From NCBI GenBank assembly GCA_964187785.1, contig OZ076409.1, positions 42,410,001-42,474,000 on the forward strand: 64,000 bases of DNA, in the 5' to 3' direction. Below the pieces are notes generated by a model that was given only the letters and a program-made list of their open reading frames with translations, did no database searches and was not told the origin of the DNA. The stretch is from Amphiscolops sp. MND2022. Its lineage: Eukaryota. The position numbers and the translations under genes were made by a program. Below, piece after piece: positions 15,593 through 56,871 of the stretch (the first letter of the stretch is position 1; each line of letters starts with the position of its first letter).

Positions 15593-16307
15593 TGTAACGG
15601 CAACTGCCCATGTCAAAATTTTCGAAGCAAAAATTCGTTCAAATGTGACGTGGCACTCAAACATGCTCCAGACGAAAGACCTGTCAGAAAAGCATATCAG
15701 AAATCAGAAATCGCCCCCCGCGAGAGACGACGAGAAGAGAAGACGTAGAAATCAGTCCCTAGAACACGGTGATGTGCCCATCTTTGGCATTTACACTACA
15801 TAGGTAACAGAAACCGTTGTTCCAGATGCTCGCCTGAAGATCCTGCGGTGTCCTGTGCGGTGACGAGCGCTAGCGCTGGGAAGCCATGGTCGATTCGTTC
15901 CTGTTAGATAACTCGAACTTCTGATATTGTTACGCTTATTGTGCTTTCCTTGTTGTAGTAGATTGATATGCTCGAGAGCTGCCCATTTAACATCTGTAGT
16001 TACCCTTTTTGATGTCGATTTTATCAGATTCTCCAATACTATGGCTCAACATTCTCCTGTTTTCAGCCCCCTTTTTAAAGGCTAATTGAGCAGTGGTCTT
16101 GAGACATGCAAGATGCCCGTTACTTTTAGCAGTTACAGACTAGGACCAGGCCAGAGAGTTTCCAACAAGACGGTTCCCCCACCTTGGGACTGGCTCCTTC
16201 AGAGGGAAAGTGAGCTAGGGCCGCGGAGATCTAAGTCCCGGATTATATTCGCTGTTCTAGTTCCTCCACTCTACGTTGCGGTTCAAGCGCCAGCGCTTAT
16301 CGTTACA
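15593..16307 (+). repeat. 5' LTR
   Basis: Starts TGTAACGGCAAC, ends CTTATCGTTACA; matches 33722-34436 except about 8 substitutions counted by eye. Confidence 0.97.
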
Positions 16308-16322
16308 TAGAACCTCATTTTT

Positions 16323-16340
16323 TGGCGACCACAGAGGGAT
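16323..16340 (+). promoter_or_regulatory. Primer binding site, tRNA-Arg(TCG)-like
   Basis: TGGCGACCACAGAGGGAT starts with TGG (complement of CCA) and resembles the reverse complement of metazoan tRNA-Arg(TCG) 3' ends (recalled as TGGCGACCACGAAGGGA). Confidence 0.75.
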
Positions 16341-18983
16341 CGTCTTGGGAAACTTTCCCGAGCGGTTTTTAAAAGATCTGGCCCCCTGGTGATCAGCGCC
16401 AAGCCCGTTTCGACTCTGGAAGAGGAGAGAGAAGCAGAGTTTTACCCTTTTTTAGTCGTGTGACATTCCACTGGAACTGGGAGAGGCGTTGAACCAGAGA
16501 AAACCGGAAAAAATCACGTTTTCAGGTGCGAAAATGGTATTTTCAGGTGTTTTGGAAGGAAATCGGTATTTTTGTGTGATGTGTTGTGTGCCCATCAGCG
16601 GGTATCTTTTTGCAGGTGCCGAAGGTCGTAGCACGTGGCTACGGGTGTTTAACAGGTTTTGCAAGCTATTTTCAGCCATTTTATGCCATGCAAGAAGGTA
16701 ACTGGTGGATGGCTGACCATGAACCAGCGAGGCGAAGGGGAAGTCAAATTGTGTGTTGCCTACTTTCTACTCCCATTTCTCGTGGAGACGTCCTAGAGGT
16801 ATGGTTTTTGGTGGACAGCAAGTGCAATTGCAGACGATGCTAATGGTCCAAACCGCGTGTCTCTATCTGGTCTGGAAGTGGAGAAAAAGCGTGGTGAAGG
16901 TGCACCCCCTGTGACCGGACGCGTCGCTCAACTGGCTCATGGTCGGTGAAAATTTTGAAAAAGCATCTTTTTCGACGGGGAATCGTTGTTGCAGGTCAGT
17001 AATGTTTTATTGTAGATGTAACGACACCCAACGAAGTGCTTTTCTGCAAAAAAGATAGCACTTGCGTGAAAAAACCCCGATTTTGCGTTTTTTTTGTGTT
17101 TTTCGTGGTTTTGAGCACTTGTGCTCAGCGGAACCAGGAAAACTTCGTGAAAAGTGTTGCAAAAAGCAGCTGCAAGGCTCGAGAAAGCTAGTACGAGGCA
17201 CAGAAGGCCGTAATTTTGCCTTTGGTTGTGATAAAAGTGCCGATTTAGCACCAGAAAATTGCAAAAAAAATGGAATTTTGACCAAAAAGGCACCCAGAAA
17301 CACAGGCGTACACTTGTGTAGAAGTGTGAAAAAGCAGTGTACGGTGTTTTGTCAAGCGTAGTAAACCCACAGGACACTAACTGCAACTTTCACAGCGGAT
17401 TCAGGCAGCCTGGGGCTGACACGGTGCAAAAAACCGGTAATTTGAGGTGTTTTTAGGCATAGAAAGTGCATTGTCTGAAAGTCTTGAGAGCGAAGCTTAG
17501 TGGAACAGAGCGAGTCTGAACGCTCTTATTTTCTGTTTTTGCAATAAAAATAGCGCATTGTGGTGAAAACCGCGTGCAAAAACTTCTTTTCAGTGTCGAG
17601 AAAAGTTGAAAAACCTTGAATTTTAGTTAGTTTCAGGAGTGTCCTAGCACACAATTAAAACCCCCTGGGCACTCTGTCTTTTTGTTAGTCAGGAGCTTTT
17701 GTGCTCTCATTTTCTGTTTCTATAGTAAAAATAACGCATTGTAGTGAAAACCGCGTGCAAAAACTTCTTTTCGGTGCTGAGAAAAGTGGAAAAACGCACT
17801 GAATCTGATCAATTTTCCACAAAACCGGACTGTCTCTGAGCTAGGGTCGGGTCATCGATTCCTGAACCCTAGCCAAGAAGTGGTTGCATTTTCGTAACCA
17901 CCACAAAAATTAACGTTAGTGCCGAAAATTTGGCGGGCGTATCGCTCACCAAGGTCGAGAAAAACTCTCTGACGTTTTGACTGCAAAGAAGCGTCAAAGG
18001 ACCGAAAAAATCCAAAACTGCAGGACTGTCAGTGCCTTATATCCAACGGGCACAACCAATTGTGGGTTTATCCCAGTGCTACGGGTAGTGGGGCAACACG
18101 TTGGTCCCATTTTGTCCGCCGTATCACTTTCTGAGGTGATCCTCTTCGTCGATTTGTGAAAAAAGTCGTCAAAAACAGTGTTTTTTCGTGTACAACGTAC
18201 ATAGTGGGTCGGAACTTCAAACAAGCGCTTGCGCTTCAATTTGACCATATCAGCGGCATTGTAGGTGCCCTTTGGCATAAACTACTAAGTTTAGTGCCGA
18301 TCTGTGCGATACTTGTCGAGAAAATAGGAAAAACGTGGCGCCCAAAAAGGGTGTGCAAAAAGGCAGTTTTTTCTTAATTTTTCCGAGTAACCCGGGCACC
18401 TTAGCCGACGGGTGGGGCCATATTGTAGCCCACCATCGTAACCTGTGCTAGTTTCTACGTCGCTGCAGAGAATTTGAGCTTGCTAGCTCGTTCCAGTGGA
18501 CCGCAATCTTGAAAAAGACGTGAAAAACAGTGTATTTCGGTACATAGTGGTACCGCACGTCTGTACCTAGGTGAAACTGTGTAGAAGGGGCGCAGCTCAA
18601 AACTGTGTTCATTTTCGTGAACCTACGCGTACCTAAGATCTGCTGGTCAATTTTGGGCTTGATACAGCGCTTCCAGCACACACACGAGCCTCTTGAGTGT
18701 TGTTGTGCGATTTCTGGAAAATCCAAAAATTCTTTGAAATTCTTCCTGTGAGTGACCGGAGACTTTTGGCCCCAAACCAGGTTGATTTTCTGACCCAGTG
18801 TGCTTGTGGGAAAGCGCTGTGCGAATTTGAGCAGCCTACGAGCCTTAAAACGCATTTCGAGAAATTTGGGACATTGTGAAACAGTAAATTTTTTTAAGTC
18901 CACACCGAGACGAGCCTAGAGCTAACAGCGACTCGACAAATCCCGCGTTCTTCGAGATTTCTTTAAAGGCTACGCCCGAATCG

Positions 18984-21368
18984 TTGACACCTGCTCTGCC
19001 ATTGGCATCGTATGTAATGGTCCTACCAGGCCTGGAAAAGCTTGACATGAGTTCGCAGTCATGGGTGACCATAGGATCCACAATGGACGGTTCGCATTTT
19101 TCAGACGAAATGTCTGACGAAGTCACTATCGAGCAACAACGCAAAGAGGAATTGGCCGCCATGGTCCCTCCCTCTGAGGGTTCCGTTGCATCTGGAAGCT
19201 CTCGTCGAACCGAGCAATGGGTCGATGAAACCTGTCGTGAAACAACCAATGAAGCAGAAGAGGAGTGGCCCAACTCGAACATGACCAACGAACTTGCAGC
19301 TGAGGAAGGGTGCTCTCGCGCACCCCTAGGAGAGAAGACGAGCTCCCGCCTACAGATTACGGTGGACGAGGATCTTACCTACACGGGGAACACGAGTTGT
19401 GCGAGACCGCAAGGGTCTGGAGTCGCTCGAGGTAACACTAGAGTTTGTGCCTATGGCAAACACAAGAGAGTGCGACCACCCATGATAAATGTAGGTGAAC
19501 GTCAGTTTGAGGTGCCTCGTACGAGGAGCGTGGCAGGTTCAGTGGCATCATCCCAACGATCTTCGGTGTATAAAGCCGCAATATTGGAAGCCCAAGCTGA
19601 GACCCAACGTGCCTTAGCTGAACTGGCTAGCACTCGTGCTGGGTGCAATGACCAACATCGTGCCATCGCAGAAAATATGAGAACGTTGCAGACAACGATG
19701 CGAGAAGGATTGCAGGTCAGTGATCAACTGCGAACCGCGCAGAATACGCAGAGTGCTCGCGTAGATGCACTAGGCCACAGAATGGGTGAGATGAATGACC
19801 TTTTGATGGCCCGTGAACTTCGTGTGGAAACCCAGATCAATGATTTGAGTAACCAAATGCACACTGTGCTCAATGCTATCAACATCATGAGGCGCGAGAG
19901 GTCCCTCCCACGACAATCTGGTGCCACTGAAGGTGTGCCAGTCGCGGATTCAATTAAGATTCCGGAATCATCGCACCTGGGTCGGGCAACGAAACCCGAG
20001 CTGGCGAGTGCATTGAAGCCTAGCACCTCCAAGTCGACGACGCCTGAAACCCGAACCAAGGATCCCGTACTCATCATGGCTGATGTGGAGCGTAAACCTG
20101 CACGGGTGCAGGTGAGGGGGCCCCACGACTCCTCGTCGATGAGTCAAATAACCTCCTCCGTAATTCGAAGTGCCACCCGAGACCAAGGTGTGGACCCAAT
20201 GTCACCTATCTATCTAGATACTTCTACCGAAGTTGACTTATCCCGTACCAAGGCCGCACTAGGGTCCCAGACTGATGAAGCTGCGTATGCGACGGCCCCT
20301 ACCATGGCTTCTGGAACGAACTCCCTGTATCTGACCGCCGACTGGACAGCCGAGGACGGAATGCCCTCGGGCGCTCCTTGTGCGAGTAGCACTCGCAAGA
20401 AAGAAGACATAGCGAACCTCTCAGTACGAGCCACGCATGGCAGTGACGACGGTACTGATGAAGTGGCACCCAAGGAAGGAGAGGCTGAGGTCATCTCTCC
20501 CGAGCAATTGAGGTTCACTGCCGCCATTTCCAAAGCGATGTCCAAAGAACTAGCACCGTTGCTTGCGGGACGTGACCTGGCTCAAACCAAACCCAGCGTG
20601 TATCGAGGCTCTAAGGACGGGTCTATTGATGGCTGGATCTTAGTGATGCAGCGATACTTGAAAAGAGTCCAAACCAAAGTCTCGGCCGAAGATCGGACCT
20701 GGAGCATTATTGGTCATCTCGAGGGTGAGGCTCGCAACTACATCATCAACAAGGCTGAGTCTGAACGTGACACCCCCGAGAAGGTGTTCGAGTTGCTATC
20801 TAGCCGATTTGGTGCGGGAGGAAATCGTATGCAGGTGCGGCAGACCTTCCAAAGCCGTGTCCAACAAGAAAAAGAGGACTGGATGCAGTACTTAGACGCT
20901 TTAGAGGGTCTCAGGAGCCAAGGATTCCCGCAAGAAAGTATCATTACCAAACGCTATGAAATCTTGCAGCGCTTCATGGAAGGTGTGCGAGATCCAGTGT
21001 TGAGGCGTGAACTTGCCATAGTATACGCCTCGGAGACTTTTCTTACCGAACCCCCTACCGTAGAGTCCTTGCGATTTACCACGCGTCAGCTGCAACGAAA
21101 TCGTCCCAGACCCACCCAACCTCAACAACCCTATGATCCCAGATTAGCCATGAGGTCTAGACCTCATCCTTTCGCACCACTGCCGCCGAACAAGATGGTT
21201 ATGCCGCAGGGCGTCTTGCCACCTCCGGCGCCCCCCCCCCCCCCAAAATGTCCCAGCTCCCGCTGTCCTAGCTCCCGCCCGAGCGCCGGTAGGTGCTTGT
21301 TTTCACTGGGCAAAACGGACATTTTGCTCGCGAGTGCCCCAATCGTGACCAAGCCCGAAAACCAATGA
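18984..21368 (+). CDS. gag: Gag (long low-complexity/coiled-coil N-terminus, capsid domain; CCHC knuckle split by frameshifts). Real start probably ATG 19017 or 19047
   Basis: 794-aa ORF; capsid-like segment KPSVYRGSKDGSIDGWILVMQRYL...LEGEARNY...FQSRVQQEKEDWMQYLDAL; knuckle reconstructs as GACFH[C]GQNGHFAREC at about 21292-21346. Confidence 0.88.
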   Translation: MTPALPLASYVMVLPGLEKLDMSSQSWVTIGSTMDGSHFSDEMSDEVTIEQQRKEELAAMVPPSEGSVASGSSRRTEQWVDETCRETTNEAEEEWPNSNMTNELAAEEGCSRAPLGEKTSSRLQITVDEDLTYTGNTSCARPQGSGVARGNTRVCAYGKHKRVRPPMINVGERQFEVPRTRSVAGSVASSQRSSVYKAAILEAQAETQRALAELASTRAGCNDQHRAIAENMRTLQTTMREGLQVSDQLRTAQNTQSARVDALGHRMGEMNDLLMARELRVETQINDLSNQMHTVLNAINIMRRERSLPRQSGATEGVPVADSIKIPESSHLGRATKPELASALKPSTSKSTTPETRTKDPVLIMADVERKPARVQVRGPHDSSSMSQITSSVIRSATRDQGVDPMSPIYLDTSTEVDLSRTKAALGSQTDEAAYATAPTMASGTNSLYLTADWTAEDGMPSGAPCASSTRKKEDIANLSVRATHGSDDGTDEVAPKEGEAEVISPEQLRFTAAISKAMSKELAPLLAGRDLAQTKPSVYRGSKDGSIDGWILVMQRYLKRVQTKVSAEDRTWSIIGHLEGEARNYIINKAESERDTPEKVFELLSSRFGAGGNRMQVRQTFQSRVQQEKEDWMQYLDALEGLRSQGFPQESIITKRYEILQRFMEGVRDPVLRRELAIVYASETFLTEPPTVESLRFTTRQLQRNRPRPTQPQQPYDPRLAMRSRPHPFAPLPPNKMVMPQGVLPPPAPPPPPKCPSSRCPSSRPSAGRCLFSLGKTDILLASAPIVTKPENQ

Positions 21369-24300
21369 CTGCCTCCGAACCAGAGGGCGTAAAGGTAACC
21401 ACGGAAGACACGACCGATGGCATCCTTGAAGGTCATCCGGGGATCTATCAATGCACGAGCTGTGGACTTTTCGATCAGGCGGAAGTGCAATGTGGTGAGC
21501 ACTCCCATGCGCCGAAGCCCAGTGACGAGTTAGCCTACAATCGATGGGCTGAGGTCGAATCAGCTGGCATCGCCGCGCACACCGTACCTTTGGAAGATGA
21601 CCGTGTGTTGATGCTACATCCAGCGGAACCGCCTGCGTTCCACACTCCGATGACATTCACTTGTGGTGCAAAGCAAGTTCAGACCTGCTTGGAACCCACG
21701 ACGTTCGACCCGCAAGGACGGACGCTGATTTCGATTCACCTGTTGCTGGCAGCTGAGCGAACACGTAGGCCGACGCTAACCCTGGCGAAGCTATGGGTCG
21801 AATTGTCTATCCTCTACAAACGAAACGAGTTGCCTCAACCGAAAGAATGGTACGCTCCGGGAGAGTCTACGACTCTGACAACATATTCCCCAGTGCCAGT
21901 CTGTGCCTCAATGGATGGAGTGGATGTGAAGTTCGAAGCCTGTGTGGTGGTGGATGTATTTCCCCCTGGCATTTGTCTGGGTCCTCAGGAGCTCAAGTGC
22001 TATAACATCAATCATCAGGAGCCCACCGGTGAAGCGCGTATAGATGAGCGTGCGTCGCTCGTGGTCTCTTTCGTGGTGCCTCATGCAGCACCTATCCCGC
22101 TGCGAGGACTGGTGGACACTGGCTCGGGCGTCTCCATACTGACGTTTTCCGCCTTTAACAGAGTGGCAGCTCGAACTGGAACGGTCCTTAAACCCTACCA
22201 AGTTGATCTGTACGCAGCCAACGGGAAGACAATAAAGACCTACGGCCTCGCAGAACATATCCATTTCCAGCTGGGAGGATACGAACTTGAAACGAACATT
22301 GTGGTGGTAGATGACGCAATGGGTGTGGAAGACTTCCTACTTGGTCGGAACTTTCTCCGCTCCTACCAGGTGTTAGTGGATCTAACATCTATGAAGATTG
22401 TGGTGCGAGCACCAGTGAAGCCTGTGTGGCATCATGCTCACGCACAGGTAGGTGACACTTCGATAGCAACCCCAGTCGTTTTGGATAGTGACTTGGTTCT
22501 GCAACCTTTCGAACGTGCGGTGGCTAGAGCCAAGCTCGTCACCAATGCACTAGAGCCGCTGATTTTTCAAAGCGTAGCGCTCAATGCCTCTTTGTCTGAC
22601 ACTACGTTGCACAATGTCGTCTTTTTAGAGGACAGCGTGGCCACTGTCAGTGAGACAGGGACACTCTTTGTGAGCCTGATAAACCTCACCAGCAACCCTC
22701 AACGCATGCGGTGTGGTGTACAACTGGGCACCGTAGTACCCATAACGGTAGTATACCAAGCAGTACCTCAGTGTCTGGACTCTCCCACAACAACCCGCAC
22801 AAAAACTGACGCCGACGACAGTCGTGCAAATTTTGTTCATAAAATTTATAGTGAAGTGAATCTGTCCACTGCTTCTGAGTTACCCTCTTCTTCAGAATTT
22901 GAGTTTTTGTCCTCAACTGACCCTAGCGAGGCAGGACTATCGGAGCGCGAAATTCGCAAGCGAACGGACCTAGAGCTAATGGCTCCGATTCCTGGGCCAG
23001 AATCTCAGCTACAGGCGGTTAAGGATTTATGGGGCGCTAGCGCCTGCGAGTCTCTCAGTAACCTCCTCGATGAATTCGATGAGCTATTCATGAAACACAA
23101 GGCTGACATCGGTCGGTGCACTATCGCTAAGCACACCGTGGAGGTGGAACCAGGGGCTGTACCACATCGCGAAGGTGCTCGCCGGATGTCCCCTGAGAAG
23201 GCCGAACGTGCCAATCAGGAGGTGCGGAACCTCTTAGCTCTGGGAATGATACAGCCCTCGCTGTCCCCTTGGGCGAGCGGCATTGTAATGGTGAAAAAGA
23301 AAAACGGGGAGTTGCGCTTTTGCTGCGACTTCCGCCCGTTAAATGAGGTAACCATTAAGGATGCCTATCCCTTGCCCCGTATTGATGAAAGCCTGGCACG
23401 GCTAGGCAAGGCGAAGATTTATACCAGCATAGACCTTGCTTGGGCCTTTTGGCAAATTCCTGTGCGGAAGGCGGATCGCCACAAAACCGCTTTTGCTTGT
23501 GAACTAGGACTTTTTGAGTGGCGGCGAATGCCATTTGGTATGTGCAATGCATCTGCCACGTTTCAGCGATCAATAGCGCGTGCGCTAAGGAATATTGTCA
23601 ATCGTGAGGGCAGCATAGTCATGGCCTACATTGATGATATCGTGATTGCCACAGAGACTGTGGAAGACCATATGGTACGTCTACGTGAAGTCTTTGAATG
23701 CCTCCGTAAAGCCGGTTTCAAAATGCGCGTGGTCAAATGCGATTTCATGAAATCGGAGATCAAGTACTTGGGACGAGTGGTTTCCGCAGAAGGAGTGAAG
23801 CCCGACCCGAAAGCCGTCGTCAAGTTGCGTGATTGGGAAATTCCCCGTAACAAGACGGAAATGCAGAGCTTCCTTGGATTCGCCAATTATTATCGCGAAT
23901 TCATCCCTTGGCACGCTAAGCTGGTTGCACCCCTGCACGCCGTCACTGGACTGAATGCCACCTTCGCATGGGGTCCTGAGCAACAAACCGCATTCAATGA
24001 AATCAAAAAAGCCCTGATCGAGGCAACTGCGCTCGCGCAGCCTGATTCCGAAGGAGAGTTTGTGTTGGACACTGACGCTAGTGCTGTCGCCATTTCTGGT
24101 ATCCTGCACCAGTGGCAAGGTCCTCCGGGTGAACGACGCCTGAGACCGATAGTTTACGGTAGCAAGAAGCTCACTACCACACAAGCTAAATACGGAGCTC
24201 CCAAGCTTGAAATGTTCGCCGCCTACTATTTCATAGTGAAAAACCACAGCTATTTATGTCCCCGGAAATTCACCCTGCGGGTAGACAACCAAGCCTTGTC

Positions 24301-24613: not shown

Positions 24614-25730
24614 GGCTCCCAACCAATTGCTACGCGTGCTTCGCCGCACAAAACGAGCGAGCAGGAGAGACAGACAAGCGAAAGCATTCGCAGCCCCCTT
24701 GCCGCCTCCGCCTTCCCTTGCTCTGCAACCGCACGAGGATGCCTATCCAGACTACCCTGAGGACTGGATTGATGTCACTGATGAAGCACGCGAAGATTAT
24801 CTATTACCGACGCATGCCGTAAATGTACCCTCACGTACCGTCTATGCTATTGCTGGGGCGAATCCTGTTGCGTTGCAAGGTACTCCCTCGGGTGTACGCG
24901 ACTCAATTATGGCTCTTAAAGACATCAACACTGAACTTCACGAACATGCTCACACCGTGCATGGTATCAAAGACCTGATCCTAGCCCAAAACCGTAATGT
25001 TCATGAGCTAGCACTCAAAAAGTTGGTGCTAAACGAACCCATTGATCATGACGTGTTTCCCGAGAACGTGCGTGAGTTCGCACGCAACTACTGCCGTCAG
25101 AAGAACACTCTCCTGTTCATTAACAAGAATGGTGTGCTTTGCGTACGATACCCTCCCAACCAACGTCCCTTGCACGAACGTCCGTGCATGATCGTCATGC
25201 CTCAACTGTACCAGCATGAGATTTTATTCCGTGCGCATGACGCCATGGGACATCAAGGTATCTCCAAAGTGGTGGCTCGGATTCAAGAACGTCACACATG
25301 GCCTGGTATTCGACGCAGCGTGGGCCGTTACGTTGGCCAATGCCTCACCTGTCAACAGGTTCGAGATAAGCCTGGTGACGTCCGATTCCACCTAAAGAAC
25401 ATCCAGAGCGGGTACTTCAACGAATTGGTCCAATATGATCATCTAAAGATCTGCCCCTCAGACAGTAATAACACTGGCATCTTGGTCATAATTGACCATT
25501 TCTCCAAGTTCGCGGAAGCAGTTCCCTGTAGTCATCACGACTACGACGCTGTGACCACCTCTCGGTTGCTGCTGCAAAAGTGGTTCGCCCGTCATGGCAC
25601 AACCACTAGAATGCAGTCTGACAATGCTCCAAATTTGACTGCTGAGGTATCCAACGAATTCCTAAAAGCAGCCCACGTTACCAAGGTAACCTCTACGGCT
25701 AGCCATCCGAGAGAACCCAAGGCTTGGTAG
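24587..25730 (+). CDS. pol: Pol part 2: linker, integrase HHCC zinc finger and first two catalytic Asp (within ORF 24462-25730)
   Basis: AHDAMGHQG...CLTCQ; VQYDHL; MQSDNAPNL; joined to the flanking ORFs by an apparent +1 insertion (~24586) and a +2 GA slip (~25712). Confidence 0.93.
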
Positions 25731-28372
25731 AGCGTCAAAACCGGACATTATTAACCCTACTGCGAGTTTTTTGCTCCCGCCGTATGCGCGACTGGGACCA
25801 ATGTCTTGATGAGGTCATGGGCGCCTACAACTCTACGAGGCACGCCACCACTGGCTTCTCACCCTACATGCTGACCCGTGGTGTAGAGAAGGCCATCCCT
25901 CTCACGTTTTTGTATCCCGAATTTGCAGCCAAATCATTCGAGTCGCATGAGGCGTATGTCGATCATGTATTGGCTCGCCAGCAGGAAATACATGACTTGG
26001 TACGGCGTAACACGCACCAAGCCCAATTGCGTCAAAAGTTGAAGTACGACCGTGCTATACAAGCGCGAGCTTACCAAGTAGGCGAGCTCGTCTGGGTTTT
26101 TTGCCGCTACGTACCGCAAAAAGGTTCCCCGAAATTGATGCGTGCTTGGCGAGGCCCGCACAAGGTTGTACAAGTCTTTCAGGACGGTCGTGTCTATGTA
26201 CTCGACACAGGTCAAAAGGTTCATTTTGAGCGTCTTAAACCGCACCACAGTGGCCCATTTGAACTTGCTACTGCACACACGGACAGTGGTGAGGTGGTGG
26301 TACTTATGGACCCCGAACCTGAACGTTCCGTCGACGTAGTTGATGACGACAAGTCTTTATCGTCGTATAAACCCGAACAACTACTTTCAGAAGCGTCCGA
26401 TGCATCTTTGCCCTCACGTCGACGTCACTGGATGGGCACGCGACTACGCACGAAACTTCGCGCAGGCGGCTCCCGCCCGCATTATCAGCAATTTGACTAT
26501 TCCACCTCGGGTACTGATGACGAACTATCCGATGCCATGTTGCCGATACCTCCTAATCCAGTTGACGAGGATCTAGTGGAGCCTGCGGCTCCTCCGGTTG
26601 CGTTGGATCAGTCGATATCCCCCGCCCGTGTAATACCTCAACTGTTCTCTGACCATGAGCGCGTGCGCTCACCGTCTCCACAGATATCCTCCTCCGAAAA
26701 AGAAACATCGTTACCAGGAACCTCAGCATCCTTGTTGACGAACCCCTCGCTAACCAATTTCCTTAGTAACTATCCCATATGGCCGACCGCCCCTCCGATT
26801 CCTCTCAAATCTGCCAGCAGCGACAGCAACGTTCAGCCCGATCTGCCTGAAGTTCCCGAGACTTCGCCAGGAGCGGGGACCGCTCCTTCTTTTAAAAGGG
26901 GGAGGGGGAGACCACCCAAGGCACAGAAGAAACGGCTGATCCGAGCGAAAGCAAGGACGAGGAAGAAAGAAACACCGAGAAATGTCGAAACCGAAACTGC
27001 AATCCAGGCCGAAACGGAAGCTCCCAGAACTGCAGAGACGCTAACAGAGGCATCTGCAACTGCTCTTAGGTATCAACTAAGGAGTAAACGGCAGCCGCGC
27101 TACAAGTGTGGAACCTGCGGGCTGCGAGATTGTGTCTGCCTATTAGCTGTGAATGAGAACCGGAGGGCCGAGAAAACCTACTCAGCTGTAGAGCGGTCCG
27201 GAGACCACCCTGTAGACACTATCCTGGAGAAGTTGTCACTGCCCGGGGTAGCGAAGGCCCCTTGTCCTAGGTTTAAGGGGTGGACTAGCGATGGAAAGGG
27301 CCTGGAGTTTACCCTGCCCACGGTGTTGCCCCCTGTGCCCAGCAATATTGCGTTTGGACCATTCAATTTTGAAAGGGAACCTGTGCAGATGGCCCGATGC
27401 ATCACTGCCGACTTGTTATGCGATAAGTATGGAGTCCAGGTGGAACCAGGAGGGGTATACAGCCCGGCTCCTCACTGGTGGCTGCTGGTAACAGCTCCAC
27501 GAGTGGAGGCGATGGTGGAACCGTTGAATCTGTTATCCTGTCTAGAGAGTCTGAGGACCCTCACCACTGTGGACTTAATACTTTGCTTCCATATCATAGA
27601 CTGGTACCGGGGCAAGGTGAAGTTTGCATGGTGGCTGGAATTAATTATTACGTGTTTCGCCACCTATCCCAGAATTCGACTGTTAGATGAGTGGACTCAC
27701 ACTTTCGAGATTCCCCTGTTCCCCAAAGCCGCCCTGGGAACTTTAGATGCGTGGGTAAAGGCCGGCAGCGACAATCGAGCGATGCCCCGCTCAGTGTGGC
27801 AAGACCTGGCTGCAGTCCAAGGGCGTACGCCTCGCGTGTGTCTGCCCTCCGACAATGGTCCCGGACGAGAGATTGTTTACCCGGGAGCCCTGTATCCGAA
27901 TTCCGCCGAACATGTTTCTTACGATGAATCTGATTTTTTGCAGGCCGAGGGCGACATAGCGTTAGCATGCCCTGCTGACCTAAAGACCAACTCTGCCGCC
28001 TTGCGATATGTGCTGCGGGAGTGCGGCATAGAAGATGTATTTGCCTTACGACCTAAAGTGGGCGAGATTCTCACTATCCCGCCTGATGTGAACCCCAACC
28101 CTAACCAAAGTATTCACCTGTTAATAGTCCGTGCTAACGAGCGCGCACCGCTGCTGACCGATGACTACTTGCGCTGCATGACGTACTTGATACAGCGCCT
28201 GATAGACAAAGGATCCACACGGGTCCACTTACCCATTCTGGACCCCGAGAGACCGGCTTTCTCGTTGGTCAAACTGTACCATACTCTAACGAACATGTTC
28301 GAGGGTACTGGTATTCGCGTGGTTTTGCATAGCCGCGTATATGTATCAATATTAACTATAGGGCTGGAGTAG
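25724..28372 (+). CDS. pol: Pol part 3: integrase catalytic Glu and GPY/F domain, then a ~700-aa extension (AT-hook, Cys cluster, two macrodomain-like units)
   Basis: GLVERQNRTL, AYNSTRHATTGFSPY, WRGPHKV; KRGRGRPPK; CGTCGLRDCVC; C-terminal region follows the TARG1/OARD1 macrodomain pattern. Confidence 0.9.
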   Translation: MVERQNRTLLTLLRVFCSRRMRDWDQCLDEVMGAYNSTRHATTGFSPYMLTRGVEKAIPLTFLYPEFAAKSFESHEAYVDHVLARQQEIHDLVRRNTHQAQLRQKLKYDRAIQARAYQVGELVWVFCRYVPQKGSPKLMRAWRGPHKVVQVFQDGRVYVLDTGQKVHFERLKPHHSGPFELATAHTDSGEVVVLMDPEPERSVDVVDDDKSLSSYKPEQLLSEASDASLPSRRRHWMGTRLRTKLRAGGSRPHYQQFDYSTSGTDDELSDAMLPIPPNPVDEDLVEPAAPPVALDQSISPARVIPQLFSDHERVRSPSPQISSSEKETSLPGTSASLLTNPSLTNFLSNYPIWPTAPPIPLKSASSDSNVQPDLPEVPETSPGAGTAPSFKRGRGRPPKAQKKRLIRAKARTRKKETPRNVETETAIQAETEAPRTAETLTEASATALRYQLRSKRQPRYKCGTCGLRDCVCLLAVNENRRAEKTYSAVERSGDHPVDTILEKLSLPGVAKAPCPRFKGWTSDGKGLEFTLPTVLPPVPSNIAFGPFNFEREPVQMARCITADLLCDKYGVQVEPGGVYSPAPHWWLLVTAPRVEAMVEPLNLLSCLESLRTLTTVDLILCFHIIDWYRGKVKFAWWLELIITCFATYPRIRLLDEWTHTFEIPLFPKAALGTLDAWVKAGSDNRAMPRSVWQDLAAVQGRTPRVCLPSDNGPGREIVYPGALYPNSAEHVSYDESDFLQAEGDIALACPADLKTNSAALRYVLRECGIEDVFALRPKVGEILTIPPDVNPNPNQSIHLLIVRANERAPLLTDDYLRCMTYLIQRLIDKGSTRVHLPILDPERPAFSLVKLYHTLTNMFEGTGIRVVLHSRVYVSILTIGLE

Positions 28373-28667
28373 CCTTATCATTTTAGTTGTCCCCATTGTT
28401 CCTTTGCCCTCAGTCTTTGTAACAATTCTTGTAACAACCATGGAAGAGTCTTGAAATGCTCTCGAAATGTTAATTTGTCATGCTGTTTACTCAAAGGTTT
28501 TGTTCTAGTTCGTTAGTTAGTTAGAGTTAAATTTTAAGTTTGTAGTGGCCCCCTTACGGAGCCGATGTTGCATTGCTGCAATTGAGGGACGAACCGGCCC
28601 ACGGCTCGCTCCAGAAAGAACTTGCCCCTGTAAGCCTAACAGTGGTCCTTTTTAGACCTATGCATTA

Positions 28668-31394
28668 ATGGCCCATTGCCCAAACAGTTCAGCGCCTGCA
28701 ACAGGGTCTAGTAGTGCAAGGCCCCAGGAATCTGCGCGAGCGCAGAGGGTCAATCAGGCCCAATATGTCGAAGAGAGGCTGCGGGACGGTCTTTCGCCAG
28801 TAGCCGTAGCTGGGGTGGCTGCCTTACTGACCCAGCTTGAATCGATGCAAATGCTGCCAAATGCATCCTTGTCGATCACTACGGAGGTGGCAGGCTATCG
28901 TCGCACCTTGACGTGCACCAACAATGCCTGGGATGGGTACGACCTGACTCACCAGTTCTTGGACGAAAGATCAATCACAGTGCATGGCCCCAGCCAGGGC
29001 ACCAGATTCGAACAAGAAGCATCACTGCGTATGATGCCCGTCAACGTCCCATCGCTGCCTTCTATCTCGGCACCGAATCCAGTGCAGATGACGCCGTATT
29101 CTAGCTCACTTGCTTATGGGGCACCATATGGAACCCAGGCAACGATGACGCAAAACACTACCAATCAATCAGCCTCAAGTCGGGAGCCCTCGGGGTCCCA
29201 ACTGCCATCAGTGCCTAATCTAAATCTTACCGGACGGAGTGCCAGCGAGCAAGCGGTGATTGTGGCCCTGCAGGCGGTCGCTAACTACCCCAACTCCTCT
29301 GACTTCGTTCGTGCAGTTGAGCAAAGGATTCCCGGATTGGCACACTATTTGCAAGCCGCAGCTCAGCCCTCGGGCTGTGTCACCCCACCCACCACCCTAG
29401 CCGAAGCTGTGTCTATGGAAGCAGAAACCACGGCTGGACCAAGCACCAGCGCTATAACATATCCCCGTGAGGAAACTGGACGGAAGCGACTTACTGAGGA
29501 AAACATCGTCGCTACACGCAACAATTCCGTGACCGAAAGTCCGACTAGTCGTCCTCCTCCGGACAAGCGAGCAGATGTACCCCAGCAATCGCAAATGAAG
29601 TGTGTAGTGGTCGTGAGGCCTCCATATCGCGTCTGCCACCTGGGCGTAGGCGCGCCTCAAATGTCCATGGCAGAGGCCATTAACCACTACGGCAGTGTGG
29701 ATGCGAATCCTGAAACGAATCCTGTGCCCTTGGGCACAGGCTCTGCCAACATGTCCCTGGAGGTGCCCGAGACAGTCGAAGAGACCAGCCCTCCCGCCTT
29801 TCGTCCCCCGTCAGATGATGTATCCGGCTCCGTGGTAACTAGCGATAGTAAACGCATCTGGATGGCAGCAGAGTGTTTGCACCCGAACACATGTGCGATT
29901 AGAAGGAGGGCACCGCCGTCGGACGCCGAGCAAAGAGAGGTGAGCAGAATCACCATTGCGGCTCAAATAACTCGATCGCTACATGCCCGTGATGCGGACC
30001 TAACTGAGCAAGCCTGGGAACAGCGTGCTCGAGAGCAACTGCCCGCCACACCCAACAACTACATGGCTCGCCTGCAGCACGACCTCACCGAGCAATTTCC
30101 CGCCAGGTACATATTGCGCGAAGGAGAAACCTGGGAAGCCAACGCCCGCTACGCTCGCAATATCAGGTCAATGAAGCCCCTCCTGAAAGCAGCTCTGCAG
30201 CGTGCGCGCTATTGTGTAGCGGTAGATTCGACATTCAAGAGTGATCTGCTTATCGATAACCTTCTGCCCGATGTGCTGGTGTTAACAATGCCACTCTCCC
30301 GCTTCGCCGAGGTCGCAGAGATGGTCGCGGTTATGTACGACCCAAACCTGAGAGGGTCCCTAAGAGAGCCGCCCCCGCGACGTGTAGTCTTCACCAACTT
30401 GATCGACCACATGGCTTGTGAAGGACTGCTACACAACCTGGATGCCCTCATGGCAGATACCCGTAGACCTGGGAATGTGGCGACCTTAGTAAACGTGGTT
30501 GCGGATGCAATGGAGCGTGCAGCAGGGATCCTTCGGGGTCGTCTGGGAGCGCTCGCGCTCTTCACATCCCCGCCGGGATTCATGTATTGGCAACGAAGCT
30601 TGCAGCAGTTTGTGTACATCTTGTCTGAGGTGTGCAAGGCGCGCCGAATCGAGTTTGCTATATGTGCGCCAAATCTTCGGGTTGATCGCGGAGACCTACG
30701 CCCCGATGCATTGTCATACCCTGCCTTCTTTGCTGCTGTATCAAGAGTGCTAATCACTGTGGAACGATCGGGAAATGCACAACTGACTATCGACGATGCC
30801 ATACTGTTCGACCATGGAATGTGTATGGGGCGAATGGCCTTCGACTCGGACGGGAATCGCGTCATGCGAGCATCTAACATGAGTGAGCGAGAGGCCGTTC
30901 GACGCTATAACTGGCTGGTGCGGAAAGACAAAGAGATTCCCGTACGAACAGAGCTGGCAGAGCTCGTGAAGGAAATTGAAACATGGCCTGCCACACGCAC
31001 GGTCGAAAGGACCATTCCCCAAATTCGGTTTGCCGCGGGAATAGAGCCTGTCAAGTTGCCCGTGGGCATGAGGCACGTCGTGGATGTGGAGGCGACCAAC
31101 TTGAAGACTGAAGTAGATGCCGCCGGATTAACGTATGCCGAATGGTATCAGTCCAGATTCGTGGACAGGACCTTGGCCGAGGTAGCTCAAGAGCTTAACT
31201 GTCCCTTGGAAGCCTTTTGCACCAGTCTCGGACTAGGCTGGAACATCGACGTAATAGCCTCTGAGTTCTTGCTCACCAATGTGCAGACTGACAAATTGTT
31301 GGAAACCATCGGCGAAACTACTGTAGGAGAGATGTTAGCGCTCGCGCTAACCATGGGCCCGACAAAGTTTGTGGAGGTCCCCTGGCTATGTTAG
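28668..31394 (+). CDS. Extra ORF3, N-terminal part (disordered N-terminus plus SGNH-hydrolase-like domain)
   Basis: 908-aa ATG-initiated ORF inside the LTRs; blocks YCVAVDS, TMPLS, VVFTNLIDH, RGDLRPDALSY. Confidence 0.8.
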   Translation: MAHCPNSSAPATGSSSARPQESARAQRVNQAQYVEERLRDGLSPVAVAGVAALLTQLESMQMLPNASLSITTEVAGYRRTLTCTNNAWDGYDLTHQFLDERSITVHGPSQGTRFEQEASLRMMPVNVPSLPSISAPNPVQMTPYSSSLAYGAPYGTQATMTQNTTNQSASSREPSGSQLPSVPNLNLTGRSASEQAVIVALQAVANYPNSSDFVRAVEQRIPGLAHYLQAAAQPSGCVTPPTTLAEAVSMEAETTAGPSTSAITYPREETGRKRLTEENIVATRNNSVTESPTSRPPPDKRADVPQQSQMKCVVVVRPPYRVCHLGVGAPQMSMAEAINHYGSVDANPETNPVPLGTGSANMSLEVPETVEETSPPAFRPPSDDVSGSVVTSDSKRIWMAAECLHPNTCAIRRRAPPSDAEQREVSRITIAAQITRSLHARDADLTEQAWEQRAREQLPATPNNYMARLQHDLTEQFPARYILREGETWEANARYARNIRSMKPLLKAALQRARYCVAVDSTFKSDLLIDNLLPDVLVLTMPLSRFAEVAEMVAVMYDPNLRGSLREPPPRRVVFTNLIDHMACEGLLHNLDALMADTRRPGNVATLVNVVADAMERAAGILRGRLGALALFTSPPGFMYWQRSLQQFVYILSEVCKARRIEFAICAPNLRVDRGDLRPDALSYPAFFAAVSRVLITVERSGNAQLTIDDAILFDHGMCMGRMAFDSDGNRVMRASNMSEREAVRRYNWLVRKDKEIPVRTELAELVKEIETWPATRTVERTIPQIRFAAGIEPVKLPVGMRHVVDVEATNLKTEVDAAGLTYAEWYQSRFVDRTLAEVAQELNCPLEAFCTSLGLGWNIDVIASEFLLTNVQTDKLLETIGETTVGEMLALALTMGPTKFVEVPWLC

Positions 31395-32947
31395 TCGAGC
31401 TGGTAGTATCCAGTGATCTAGTCACCTTTTACAGCTACCTGATCCTCGCGCAGGGACAGCTACGCAGCCTAACTCGATGGGGTCACCTCCTAAATTCCAA
31501 GGACCAACAAGATTATGTCACCCAGCTGGAACGCATGCGTGCGTCCCTCCAACATTGGTTGTATTCCACCCTAGTGTTCGCCTCTGGCTTGTTCGTAGGC
31601 GTGGATCAGTCGCAACCCCTCCACAATTCCGAGCGTCAACTCCCTGCGGAAACGGCGGGATTTCCTATGCCCCAGCAAATCGCCGATTTGACTCTGGCCG
31701 AAGTGGAGGACTTCGTGGCCGTTATGGCTTCCGTCCTGGCCCCAATCTTCGGTGCGGTCGGTGTGTGCCGGTATCCCACCAAACCACTGGCGAGAGCAGT
31801 ACAGGTGCACATGGTCTCCTTCTGCACCTATCTCCAAGGACGACCCCCGCTGACCTATCAGCGCATCGTACAGGCCGTATTGAGTGGCGAGATGCCGCAT
31901 GGGTATACCACCTTGAAGTCGGAGAAACAGCTGGAAGAGAACTTGATGGGTCTATTGCGTGCCCGCACACAAAAGGAGTGCCCTTTGCCACGAGAATACG
32001 GCCCAGTCAACTGGTACTCCGCGCCTCTCAGCCTGAATGGAGTCCCCTTTAGATTCCCTTGGTCGCAGGAGTTTATACGCAAAGTGATCCGTGCCAGCAC
32101 TAGTGCTGGTCCACCAATAGATCCCCTGTACGCCTTCAAGTGCATCACCTTCCCAAATCACTACTGGAAGGAGCCACTGGGATGGCCCAGAGCAAAACCC
32201 GTTGGTCGCGCCCCTGAAGCCTTCAATCGACAAATCCAGTATATGGAATTGGCTCAGATTCCGAATTGGATTGAAGGAGCAGCTCAGACTCGTCAGAGGA
32301 ACCTGCAAAGACGCGTGACTCCGTTCCATAGAAGAGCTGCCTGGAGACCGCAGGCCAAGATGACGATGTCAGGGGATATGTCCATCGTCCAGCACGATGA
32401 GATCAATACCGTGCTAGGCCCCGAAGCCCGCGCAGAGTGGGAAGGATATTGCTTGGAGCTGGAGATTGCCAGCTTCCCAAAATGGAAGCGAGCTTGCGAG
32501 CTCTGGAGTCAGCCTGGCTGGGTCTCCAAACGAATATCCTTGGCCGTGGAGAGTAGAGCTGAACTCGAGAGACAACAGGCGTTCGCGCCTGCCATGCTGG
32601 CACCCACAATGGCCATGTCATTAAGTCATCCCATCGACCGGCCCGTGACTCTGGATTTGCCTACCCATGTTCTACAGCCAGAGCCTGTGAGTGCACCATC
32701 GCCACAGGCCAGTCCTCAGTCATCGCAACCCCAAACCGGAGAACACGCCGCTGAACTGACCCCCAACACTATCCTGGTGCAGCCGATCGCCGATTTAGCG
32801 CTCCCAGAAGACCTATCAGACTCGGAAACAGTAGTTACTGTGGTTCCTGCTCAACGTAGAGCGTCAGTTGCGTTGGAAGATGCCAGCAATCCAGGAACTT
32901 CCGATGATGCCATAAAGAATCGAGCTCGACGCAGCTCAGCCCAATAA
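31388..32947 (+). CDS. Extra ORF3, C-terminal part (unknown function), probably contiguous with 28668-31394
   Basis: 519-aa ORF overlapping the previous one; adding one G at about 31375 gives the read-through KFVGGPLAMLVEL. Confidence 0.75.
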   Translation: MLVELVVSSDLVTFYSYLILAQGQLRSLTRWGHLLNSKDQQDYVTQLERMRASLQHWLYSTLVFASGLFVGVDQSQPLHNSERQLPAETAGFPMPQQIADLTLAEVEDFVAVMASVLAPIFGAVGVCRYPTKPLARAVQVHMVSFCTYLQGRPPLTYQRIVQAVLSGEMPHGYTTLKSEKQLEENLMGLLRARTQKECPLPREYGPVNWYSAPLSLNGVPFRFPWSQEFIRKVIRASTSAGPPIDPLYAFKCITFPNHYWKEPLGWPRAKPVGRAPEAFNRQIQYMELAQIPNWIEGAAQTRQRNLQRRVTPFHRRAAWRPQAKMTMSGDMSIVQHDEINTVLGPEARAEWEGYCLELEIASFPKWKRACELWSQPGWVSKRISLAVESRAELERQQAFAPAMLAPTMAMSLSHPIDRPVTLDLPTHVLQPEPVSAPSPQASPQSSQPQTGEHAAELTPNTILVQPIADLALPEDLSDSETVVTVVPAQRRASVALEDASNPGTSDDAIKNRARRSSAQ

Positions 32948-33712
32948 ACCCTGCCGCCAATGGGAGCGTTCGCGCTCCCTATAGACTCTAAACTCCGCCG
33001 AAACTGTGCCTTCAAACTTATCGCTTTAACCGGTGCTACCCGTACATGGTGCAATTTTTTGTTCATAGTTATTACTTAGTTAATGTATTGTTAGTAATGC
33101 GCTGGGTGTACGGCCAATAGAGTGCGCCTGCCCCAGCTGCTTCGCCTACAAAAGTAAAAAAGAATCTATTACCAAAGAGAAACTGCTATTTTTGTTGCGC
33201 ACCGTTCGCGGTGTTTTTGAGTTGCCATAGTCAAGAAAAAGTCTTAGCCTTTTAGTTACGGTTTTTGCTGTTTTTCCTTGTGTTTTGGTGTTCAAGCATC
33301 TTCTATCGACTGTCTAAGGAGTAGCCGAAGCGGCGCCCTCCCAAAAGAAGTTTTACGTTGCCCGAAATTGACCGAAAACTGTAAATGTCAAGTTGCATAA
33401 AAAAAGGAGATTTTAGCTGACCTTGGTCGCAAGAGAATTTTTAGCGAAAACTGCTTGCCCAAACGAGTTTTAACCGACTGAAAACCTTAGCTCTCGAGCT
33501 GGTGCTAAAACCTCGTTTGCATTTTTGTAAAAAATACTAGGCAGTAAAATTTTCCTTGAAAAAAAACCGCGAAATTTGCCAAAAATAGTTGCTGAAAAAC
33601 GAGGACTCGTCCTTGTCCCCTGTGATGTGGATGATGGTTCCCAGCAGTCACTGCGATGCCGTTTCCAGACGAGGCCAGATGCCGCTTGCCAGGGACGACA
33701 AGCCAGAAGCCC

Positions 33713-33721
33713 GGGGAGTGA
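33713..33721 (+). promoter_or_regulatory. Polypurine tract
   Basis: GGGGAGTGA directly abutting the 3' LTR. Confidence 0.75.
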
Positions 33722-34436
33722 TGTAACGGCAACTGCCCAAGTCAAAATTTTCGAAGCAAAAATTCGTTCAAATCTGACGTGGCACTCAAACATGCTCCAG
33801 ACGAAAGACCTGTCAGAAAAGCATATCAGAAATCAGAAATCGCCTCCCGCGAGAGACGACGAGAAGAGAAGACGTAGAAATCAGTCCCTAGAACACGGTG
33901 ATGTGCCCATCTTTGGCATTTACACTACATAGGTAACAGAAACCGGTGTTCCAGATGCTCGCCTGAAGATCCTGCGGTGTCCTGTGCGGTGACGAGCGCT
34001 AGCGCTGGGAAGCCATGGTCGATTCGTTCCTGTTAGATAACTCGAACTTCTGATATTGTTACGCTTATTGTGCTTTCCTTGTTGTAGTAGATTGATATGC
34101 TCGAGAGCTGCCCATTTAACATCTGTAGTTACCCTTTTTGATGTCGATTTTATCAGATTCTCCAATACTATGGCTCAACATTCTCCTGTTTTCAGCCCCC
34201 TTTTTAAAAGCTAATTGAGCAGTGGTCTTGAGACATGCAAGATGCCCGTTACTTTTAGCAGTTACAGACTAGGACCAGGCCAGAGAGTTTCCAACAAGAC
34301 GGTTCCCCCACCTTGGGACTGGCTCCTTCGGAGGGAAAATGAGCTAGGGCCGCGGAGATCTAAGTCCCGGATTACATTCGCTGTTCTAGTTCCTCCACTC
34401 TACGTTGCGGTTCAAGCGCCAGCGCTTATCGTTACA
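33722..34436 (+). repeat. 3' LTR
   Basis: Direct repeat of 15593-16307, same length, immediately preceded by a purine tract. Confidence 0.97.

Positions 34437-56697: not shown

Positions 56698-56871
<174 letters not shown>

What the first reader, a model, noticed from the sequence alone, without database searches (positions are those of the whole stretch)
15593..34436. Giant 18.8-kb cargo-laden Gypsy element with an unfamiliar domain architecture
Seen: two to three times the size of a typical Gypsy element, with a 2.7-kb leader, a ~3,100-aa reconstructed Gag-Pol and a ~1,430-aa extra ORF; LTRs about 99% identical, so insertion is recent. Known: other giant Gypsy lineages exist (plant Ogre/Tat, planarian Burro). 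Inference: the combination pseudo-PR + PR + dUTPase-like + RT + RH + IN + AT-hook + 2x macrodomain + SGNH ORF does not match a lineage I recognise and may be an undescribed clade.
Basis: partly seen in the sequence, partly recalled or inferred. Interest (0 to 1): 0.9.

Follow-up and report, generated by a model that had tools for sequence, protein, structure and literature searches.

The report
Large Gypsy retrotransposon, three-base insertion footprint
This is a real, recently active 19-kb jumping gene of the Gypsy type that carries extra protein cargo and duplicates only three host bases where it inserts, instead of the usual four to six, which points to an integrase with unusual cutting geometry.

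Summary
The element is real: 18,844 bp, with 715-bp TG..CA LTRs 98.9% identical. It belongs to a family with 422 exact LTR-PBS junctions in the genome. Gag-Pol is one open frame of about 3,190 codons in 45 of 150 scored RT matches. The 1,430-codon extra ORF is present in 10 of 10 sister copies and under purifying selection (dN/dS 0.04-0.15). The tRNA-Arg primer site also lies 15 nt from the LTR. The only 3-bp LTR group I found in print is Troyka, and this element fails Troyka's other defining features. Verdict: a new variant of Gypsy, probably a second origin of the 3-bp stagger. No named GyDB, Repbase or Dfam references were available, so its clade position and prior annotation remain open.

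The parts
15590..15592 (+). left copy of the 3-bp target-site duplication (TTT)
   Evidence: family-wide test
15593..16307 (+). 5' LTR, 715 nt, TG..CA, short terminal inverted repeat TGTAAC..GTTACA
16308..16322 (+). 15-nt spacer between LTR end and primer site (11-16 nt in related families)
16323..16340 (+). 18-nt primer-binding site complementary to the 3' end of host tRNA-Arg (mostly TCG) plus CCA
16341..19016 (+). 2.7-kb leader with 14 upstream ATGs and a 93-nt direct repeat (17522-17614 / 17703-17795); conserved in blocks in 4 of 6 related elements examined
19017..28372 (+). single Gag-Pol ORF of the family; in this copy broken by frame shifts near 21.3, 24.5 and 25.7 kb and shorter than the sisters near 27.2 kb
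20622..21017 (+). capsid-like Gag region (Pfam PNMA, E 8e-4, below curated cut-off)
21270..21343 (+). CCHC zinc knuckle, broken in this copy; CX2CX4HX4C in relatives
21665..22042 (+). possible degenerate protease-like repeat without the catalytic DTG (weak)
   Evidence: E 0.0012, probability 19%, 40 columns
22097..22360 (+). aspartic protease with DTG
22445..22777 (+). domain between PR and RT at the position of dUTPase in other LTR elements; identity not confirmed
23291..23773 (+). reverse transcriptase, YIDD
23969..24367 (+). RNase H, directly after RT
25200..26250 (+). integrase: HHCC, D-D(35)E core with SDNAP after the second Asp, GPF/Y-type motif (WRGPH); best PDB match Ty3 Gag-Pol
26894..26932 (+). 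AT-hook-like basic motif (weak)
   Evidence: E 0.39
27065..27140 (+). conserved Cys cluster (CxxC..CxC), possible zinc site
   Evidence: C15, C18, C25 invariant in 16 sequences
27338..27769 (+). first macro-like fold (probable)
   Evidence: macro-like aminopeptidase N-domains Z 6.1-6.4; tandem-macro PARP14 spans model 114-449
27902..28336 (+). TARG1/DarG-type macrodomain at the Pol C-terminus
   Evidence: E 2e-8; Z 14.5, rmsd 2.8, 138 aligned
28630..28655 (+). branch-point-like CTAAC, pyrimidine tract and AG just before the ORF2 ATG: candidate splice acceptor
28668..32947 (+). extra ORF (ORF2), 1,426 aa from the first Met in sisters; frame break near 31.3 kb in this copy
30195..30782 (+). SGNH/GDSL-fold domain with a non-canonical active site
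33700..33721 (+). imperfect polypurine tract (14 of the last 20 nt are purines)
33722..34436 (+). 3' LTR
34437..34439 (+). right copy of the 3-bp target-site duplication (TTT)

Best explanation
A recently active, autonomous Ty3/Gypsy (Metaviridae-type) LTR retrotransposon of a distinct clade of roughly 19-kb elements. SHOWN: one Gag-Pol ORF without a programmed frameshift; a primer site matching host tRNA-Arg 15 nt past the LTR; insertions that duplicate exactly 3 host bases with a palindromic preference A at -3 and T at +5; two cargo modules kept under purifying selection (a Pol tail with a Cys cluster and one firm plus one probable macro fold; a separate 1,426-aa ORF with an SGNH fold). INFERRED: the integrase joins the two cDNA ends 3 bp apart, tighter than the 4-6 bp of studied retroviral integrases, and must remove about 15 bases beyond the terminal CA at the U5 end (two is usual, recalled). 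ORF2 is made from a spliced subgenomic RNA. The cargo most likely acts as binding modules rather than enzymes: the Pol tail tethers the integration complex to chromatin or ADP-ribose-marked sites, and the SGNH pseudo-enzyme scaffolds or traffics the RNP, as the Oskar OSK domain and LINE ORF1 esterases are thought to. Odds: identity as a Gypsy-type element with a 3-bp stagger about 0.85; the binding-module role of the cargo about 0.45.
For: TSD 3 bp in 25 of 30 own-family copies, 0 of 30 at 4, 5 or 6 bp, against a shuffled-pair rate of 15 of 870; 5 of 7 in other families sharing the PBS; 5 of 6 plus 2 of 2 in the most distant sub-clade. A at -3 in 19 of 25 and T at +5 in 17 of 25 (p 8e-6 and 2e-4), symmetric about the middle TSD base; PFV Ala188 contacts the base 3 positions upstream of the joining site (PMC4422553), and the aligned residue here is Pro or Thr. 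Gypsy hallmarks: PR-RT-RH-IN order, GPF/Y-type motif, CX2CX4HX4C and YIDD, Ty3 the best integrase match (E 2e-29 against 1e-13 for PFV). PBS matches host tRNA-Arg genes. Macro fold. SGNH fold: the top 47 of 50 VIA rows are SGNH/GDSL-type by title or recalled family, Oskar OSK among them; Ser is kept (24 of 28) but the block-V His position is Arg (31 of 41). dN/dS 0.04-0.05 for the macro region and 0.04-0.15 for unsaturated ORF2 segments against the nearest family. Acceptor-like AG within 25 nt of the ORF2 start in 6 of 8 elements with a long ORF2.
Against: 8 of 45 insertions show no 3-bp duplication: two differ by one base, one has a PPT before its 5' LTR, one has a damaged start, four are unexplained. 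The A(-3)/T(+5) preference is not evident in the small samples of other families (2 of 5 and 1 of 5). SGNH Z-scores (5.8-8.2) are in the range the tool calls middling, and Foldseek found nothing at E <= 0.001. Profile comparison of the two macro halves is not significant (E 0.26). A conserved Ser and a conserved His in block III (35 of 38) leave a non-canonical active esterase possible. One 19-residue hydrophobic stretch in ORF2 (Kyte-Doolittle 2.28) could be membrane-associated. No splice donor was conserved in the leader. The tree has no named references and is the quick method.
Confidence: 0.72

Rival explanations
1. Same element, but the cargo are active enzymes: the macrodomains reverse host ADP-ribosylation as viral macrodomains do, and the SGNH ORF is a lipase/esterase that helps particles cross membranes in place of Env.
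For: TARG1/DarG hydrolases are the best fold matches and RNA-virus macrodomains also match. The SGNH Ser and a block-III His are conserved. A sister-group protein (P0150, RT 58% identical) has a Pfam GDSL_2 match with recognisable catalytic blocks. Bdelloid LTR elements carry intact GDSL ORF3s (PMC5408684).
Against: The canonical block-V His and block-II Gly are missing. By eye, the two loops of the second macrodomain that are glycine-rich in TARG1/DarG (recalled) have no glycine. The P0150 GDSL domain showed no similarity to this ORF2.
Confidence: 0.3
3. The integrase cuts with an ordinary 5-bp stagger, and host repair trims one base on each side, leaving an apparent 3-bp duplication.
For: A symmetric trim of an odd stagger would keep the same symmetry axis, so the palindrome alone cannot exclude it.
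Against: 0 of 45 sites keep 4 or 5 bp, whereas repair-based trimming should be leaky. The preferred base lies at -3 from the 3-bp edge, where retroviral integrases read the target.
Confidence: 0.08
4. It is a Troyka/Kuafuortervirus element, or a chimera that took its integrase from one.
For: It shares the 3-bp TSD.
Against: TG..CA rather than CG..CG ends; 715-bp LTR against 100-400; 17.4-kb internal region against at most 7.7 kb; CX2CX4HX4C rather than CX2CX8-10HX4C; GPF/Y-type motif present in the integrase; YIDD rather than IADD/VADD/LADD.
Confidence: 0.03

Closest known systems
Ty3/Gypsy (Metaviridae) LTR retrotransposons
   Same: TG..CA LTRs, tRNA primer site, gag-PR-RT-RH-IN order, CX2CX4HX4C knuckle, GPF/Y-type integrase motif, Ty3 as best solved integrase match
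   Different: 3-bp TSD instead of 4-6 (PMC12440569), primer site 11-16 nt from the LTR, 19-kb size, macro folds at the Pol C-terminus, 1,426-aa SGNH-fold ORF
Troyka / Kuafuorterviruses (PMC12440569, PMC11673190)
   Same: 3-bp TSD; single Gag-Pol; same Pol domain order
   Different: termini, LTR and internal length, knuckle spacing, GPF/Y motif and RT catalytic motif all differ; Troyka is described without an extra ORF of this kind
Bdelloid Vesta/Juno LTR retrotransposons (PMC5408684)
   Same: SGNH/GDSL ORF downstream of pol, typically a separate spliced unit; dUTPase between PR and RT
   Different: their GDSL keeps its catalytic residues; no macrodomain is mentioned in that paper (0 hits for 'macro'); here ORF2 is 1,426 aa with a degenerate site and the dUTPase identity is unconfirmed
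Planarian Burro (as reviewed in PMC6431247)
   Same: very long single polyprotein with extra domains, many copies, dUTPase-like position
   Different: Burro cargo is MATH, BIR, ankyrin, BCL2 and env-like, over 30 kb in total; none of these appeared in the Pfam scan here
TARG1/C6orf130 and DarG macrodomains; Oskar OSK domain
   Same: fold: Z 14.5 and 13.5; Z 7.2 for OSK
   Different: 11-14% and 7% identity; catalytic or ligand loops appear degenerate; function untested

Membership tests
Ty3/Gypsy (Metaviridae) | direct LTRs with TG..CA termini | tested here: met
Ty3/Gypsy (Metaviridae) | Pol order PR-RT-RH-IN, with RH directly after RT | tested here: met
Ty3/Gypsy (Metaviridae) | GPF/Y motif in the integrase C-terminus; CX2CX4HX4C knuckle | tested here: met
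   (WRGPH in 4 of 4 relatives checked; knuckle spacing in 4 of 4); features as listed in PMC12440569
Ty3/Gypsy (Metaviridae) | 4-6-bp target-site duplication (typical trait, not the basis of classification) | tested here: not met
   0 of 45 at 4-6 bp, 37 of 45 at 3 bp
Ty3/Gypsy (Metaviridae) | RT phylogeny inside named Gypsy clades | tested here: inconclusive
   long-branch group among unnamed Gypsy-like RTs, no named references; Ty3 is the best integrase match
Troyka / Kuafuorterviridae | 3-bp TSD | tested here: met
Troyka / Kuafuorterviridae | CG..CG termini | tested here: not met
   TG..CA in all 30 usable own-family copies
Troyka / Kuafuorterviridae | CX2CX8-10HX4C knuckle, no GPF/Y motif, IADD/VADD/LADD in RT | tested here: not met
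Troyka / Kuafuorterviridae | LTR 100-400 bp, internal region at most 7.7 kb | tested here: not met
   715 bp and 17.4 kb
Troyka / Kuafuorterviridae | RT/IN phylogeny with Troyka references | not testable with these tools
   supplementary alignments not readable
Macrodomain, TARG1/DarG type | macro fold | tested here: met
   second domain Z 14.5, rmsd 2.8, 138 aligned; Foldseek E 2e-8; first domain only probable
Macrodomain, TARG1/DarG type | ADP-ribose binding loops and catalytic residues | tested here: inconclusive
   judged by eye against recalled motifs only
SGNH/GDSL hydrolase | SGNH fold | tested here: met
   consistent family across the list but middling Z (5.8-8.2); no Foldseek hit
SGNH/GDSL hydrolase | S, G, N, H catalytic residues in blocks I, II, III, V | tested here: not met
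   Ser kept (24 of 28); no block-II Gly; Arg at the block-V His position (31 of 41); block assignment by eye
dUTPase-like domain | sequence or fold match to dUTPase | tested here: inconclusive
   no dUTPase hit in PDB or Pfam with a 14-sequence alignment; not folded
Env-bearing Gypsy (errantivirus-like) | third ORF with signal peptide, fusion-protein fold and C-terminal anchor | tested here: inconclusive
   one internal hydrophobic stretch only; residues 480-1100 folded, with no fusion protein listed; the rest was not folded

The most novel reading that the evidence does not exclude
A previously undescribed clade of roughly 19-kb Gypsy elements has independently evolved a 3-bp integration stagger with ordinary TG..CA ends. 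It processes a cDNA end extended by 11-16 bases, and uses a tandem macrodomain tail on its integrase polyprotein to read or erase host ADP-ribosylation. That would be a new integrase geometry and a new class of LTR-element accessory function.
Probability: 0.45. Interest if true: 0.8.

Novelty: new variant of a known kind. Interest (0 to 1): 0.64.

Why it matters
TSD length reflects how an intasome bends target DNA: retroviral staggers of 4-6 bp scale inversely with bending (PMC4422553, passages). A 3-bp stagger was described only for Troyka, and it helped justify a new superfamily (PMC12440569). A TG..CA Gypsy clade with the same stagger means the trait arose at least twice and is not diagnostic alone. 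It also gives a natural comparison for finding the residues that set stagger length: this clade has Ala where the unnamed sister group keeps Gly, next to the target-contact residue. The macrodomain tail makes a link between LTR retrotransposition and ADP-ribosylation testable. Practically, elements with LTRs 18 kb apart, 3-bp TSDs and offset primer sites fall outside default LTR-finder settings (recalled, not tested), so such clades may be under-annotated even when they number in the hundreds to thousands per genome.

Tried and rejected
Troyka membership: rejected. Mis-set LTR boundary as the cause of the 3-bp TSD: rejected, because the flanking base at -4 is A in only 8 of 25 and at +3 is T in only 7 of 25. 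dUTPase-like: no match. Pseudo-protease profile against PDB: 0 hits. PR with pseudo-PR complex prediction: no answer (score 0.01), no evidence either way. Macro-1 against macro-2 profile comparison: not significant. Sequence-only PDB searches of the Pol tail and capsid: nothing useful. ESM Atlas: no usable hit for ORF2, only a sub-0.9 macro lead for the Pol tail. Foldseek on the ORF2 model: no hit at E <= 0.001; the helical part (model 320-498) was not searched alone. ORF2 against the P0150 GDSL region: no similarity. Rfam: 0 matches. The LTR-PBS RNA fold is not more stable than shuffles (z -0.55). Sequencing runs: no RNA holder listed; two small-share runs gave only short contigs, not used as evidence. 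JGI metagenomes: 58 loci, best 47% identity, no close relative. Ends of one sub-family were not captured in 8 of 10 fetched pairs, and a ninth lay in a 3-kb repeat, so its TSD rests on one element. The sister group (RT about 57%) had no match above 53% identity among the 70 scored in this genome and its DNA could not be fetched, so its TSD is unknown. Gly-to-Ala at the integrase SDNA motif is only a lead: Ty3 has Asp there, as do 3 outgroup loci. The host organism was not identified. Earlier scan findings: none. Paper searches that listed no Gypsy with a 3-bp TSD, no macrodomain-bearing LTR element and no long PBS offset: (listings only; most subscription journals and Repbase Reports are not covered).
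Full report
OBSERVATION. The element spans window 15593-34436 (18,844 bp). Its LTRs are 715 nt each, begin TGTAAC, end GTTACA and differ at 8 positions. The interior is GC-rich (about 50-56%) against about 36% in the flanks. Six long plus-strand frames fill 18888-32947. Pfam finds protease, RT, RNase H, integrase zinc finger and integrase core in Gypsy order, with sub-threshold PNMA-type capsid, zinc-knuckle and AT-hook matches.

FAMILY. The window lies in a 1.07-Gb genome. All 40 LTR matches scored were at least 99% identical. The exact LTR-spacer-PBS junction occurs 422 times (control 0). Of 150 RT matches scored at 98% or more identity, 45 sit in one open frame of 3,189-3,195 codons (hand count), so Gag and Pol are one ORF and this copy's frame breaks are decay. 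Ten sister copies are collinear at about 94-99%; all ten carry the leader, macro region and extra ORF, and three have that ORF uninterrupted. A 15-nt PBS pattern occurs 3,448 times, about 254 of them in tRNA genes. Twenty sampled non-family hits all show the same LTR-end/spacer/PBS layout; those with both LTRs and full cargo are about 19 kb, with macro and ORF2 homologues down to 35-45% identity.

The duplication of host DNA is 3 bp. Own family: 25 of 30 usable copies (31 examined, one 3' end not captured; the 20 sampled by their ends were chosen from long-open-frame hits on the plus strand), none at 4, 5 or 6 bp, against 15 of 870 for shuffled flank pairs. Other families: 5 of 7 with both ends found among 20 sampled. 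Most distant sub-clade: 5 of 6 and 2 more, from 20 fetched pairs of which 12 were not assessable. Total: 37 of 45 at 3 bp, 0 of 45 at 4 bp or more. A shifted LTR boundary does not explain it (base counts). In the own family, target sites prefer A at -3 (19 of 25) and T at +5 (17 of 25), symmetric about the middle TSD base; this preference was not evident in the few sites of other families. PMC4422553 (abstract and passages) reports 4-6-bp staggers for retroviruses, sharper bending for shorter staggers, and a contact of PFV Ala188 with the base at -3. The aligned stretch here reads SDNAP or SDNAT in all 65 clade sequences matched (many are near-copies), while all 10 sister-group sequences keep Gly. 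This is a lead only, since Ty3 has Asp at that place.

PRIMING. The 18 nt at 16323-16340 are complementary to the 3' end of host tRNA-Arg genes plus CCA. They lie 15 nt past the LTR, and 11-16 nt in relatives. By the standard retroviral scheme (established knowledge) this spacer is copied onto the right end of the cDNA, so it must be removed before joining; that is inferred, not shown. For comparison, PMC3286476 (passages) describes gypsy-lineage primer sites that overlap the LTR's last base.

CARGO. An AlphaFold model of the last 458 Pol residues (16 sequences, mean pLDDT 67) matches TARG1 (Foldseek E 2e-8; Z 14.5, rmsd 2.8, 138 aligned) and DarG (Z 13.5) over residues 303-448. The upstream domain is only probably macro-like: aminopeptidase N-domains align to it at Z about 6, tandem-macro PARP14 spans both domains, and the profile comparison of the two halves is not significant. 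A model of ORF2 residues 480-1100 (75 sequences, mean pLDDT 68) gave no Foldseek hit. The exhaustive structural search, however, returned SGNH/GDSL-type proteins in the top 47 of 50 rows (family judged from titles and recall) over model residues 35-230, at Z 5.8-8.2, including Oskar OSK. The nucleophile Ser is kept, the block-V His position is Arg and the block-II Gly is absent, but a His in block III is conserved (blocks assigned by eye). Against the nearest family, synonymous sites are near saturation while dN/dS is 0.04-0.05 for the macro region and 0.04-0.15 for ORF2, so both modules are working proteins. A splice-acceptor-like signal precedes the ORF2 start in 6 of 8 elements with a long ORF2; no conserved donor was found. 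The pseudo-protease has only weak support (E 0.0012, probability 19%) and the dUTPase-like label none.

RELATIVES AND PLACEMENT. All 25 ORF2 hits and all 43 Pol-tail hits are unnamed ENA proteins. A full-library HMMER search gave 335 ORF2 matches, with no names held. Of the best 120 RT-RH hits, 118 are unnamed ENA proteins; the two named ones are frog proteins at 40-42%. A quick ML tree of 65 RT-RH rows (24 selected proteins, the window, and loci with matches over 340 residues; the careful search did not finish) joins this clade and an ENA sister group on a branch of 0.72 with SH-aLRT 100. Several close ENA proteins are identical or nearly identical to copies in this genome, so they are not independent evidence of range. 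The sister group was not found in this genome (best 53% among 70 scored). No named GyDB, Repbase or Dfam sequences were available, and the Troyka supplement could not be read, so placement among named clades is open.

COMPARISON WITH KNOWN SYSTEMS. PMC12440569 (parts 1-4 of 5 read, i.e. the whole main text) states that Troyka makes 3-bp TSDs while other LTR retrotransposons make 4-6. It defines Troyka by CG..CG ends, 100-400-bp LTRs, an internal region of at most 7.7 kb, a CX2CX8-10HX4C knuckle and no GPF/Y motif. PMC11673190 (part 1 of 3 and passages) adds IADD/VADD/LADD in RT. This element meets only the TSD criterion, and its integrase is closest to Ty3 among solved structures. GDSL ORF3 and dUTPase cargo have precedent in bdelloid elements (PMC5408684, passages), and a dUTPase-like domain in Burro (PMC6431247, passages), whose 20-kb bar for 'giant' this element does not reach. 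Passages of PMC6338049, PMC12859917 and PMC6238403 held nothing on macrodomains or TSD length in LTR elements. Searches (listings only) showed no Gypsy with a 3-bp TSD or with a macrodomain. The library misses most subscription journals and Repbase Reports, and I recall macro-like annotations on some insect Gypsy polyproteins that I could not check, so the macrodomain alone may not be new.

MECHANISM AND VERDICT. Most likely this is an autonomous Gypsy-type element that is primed by tRNA-Arg, makes one Gag-Pol polyprotein and a spliced ORF2 product, and integrates with a 3-bp stagger. The stagger, selection on the cargo and the folds are shown or well supported; long 3' processing, splicing and the binding role of the cargo are inferred. 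It works like a Gypsy element and meets the structural criteria for that group except TSD length; it is not Troyka. Novelty: new variant of a known kind; interest 0.64. The most novel reading, an independent 3-bp integrase geometry with a macrodomain link to ADP-ribosylation, has probability about 0.45 and would merit 0.8.

Noticed in passing
G000:C9:57.54-57.58 Mb (L062, L063): A tandem array of tRNA-Arg genes (mostly TCG, some CCG), about 174-nt period; 254 genome-wide matches to the 3' pattern, 99 of the 100 listed lying here. It is the primer tRNA of this abundant clade.
   Followed up: partly
window 12022-14994: Three near-identical tandem copies of a 1,127-nt unit just left of the element (99-100% over the 300-nt reference blocks shown); no ORF over 130 aa.
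   Followed up: no
window 11154-11843, 42470-42756, 45285-46190: Tandem repeats of 187, 124 and 231 nt, plus dispersed short repeat families with direct and inverted copies across the AT-rich flanks, possibly MITE or satellite remnants.
   Followed up: no
L218 (G000:C6:4360162-4363662): A related element with a 3-bp TSD and a 16-nt spacer but a different primer site, so primer switching has occurred within the clade; the tRNA was not identified.
   Followed up: partly
P0150 (unnamed ENA protein): A sister-group Pol (RT 58% identical) whose truncated integrase runs in frame into a GDSL/SGNH domain with recognisable catalytic blocks (Pfam E 9e-7, just under cut-off), followed by a stretch that resembles this ORF2's block III by eye only.
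   Followed up: partly
window about 24440-25150: An unusually long spacer (about 270 codons) between RNase H and the integrase zinc finger, longer still in the sister group; not folded.
   Followed up: no
L066 (G000:C1:4315477-4317677): A 5' LTR preceded by the element's own PPT region, i.e. a tandem or recombined arrangement sharing an LTR.
   Followed up: no
window 16072-16147 against 36947-37025 (minus strand): A 79-nt piece of LTR-like sequence (80% identical) in the right flank, probably a remnant of a related element.
   Followed up: no
window 56702-56858: (GAG)15 followed by (GA)58 microsatellite.
   Followed up: no
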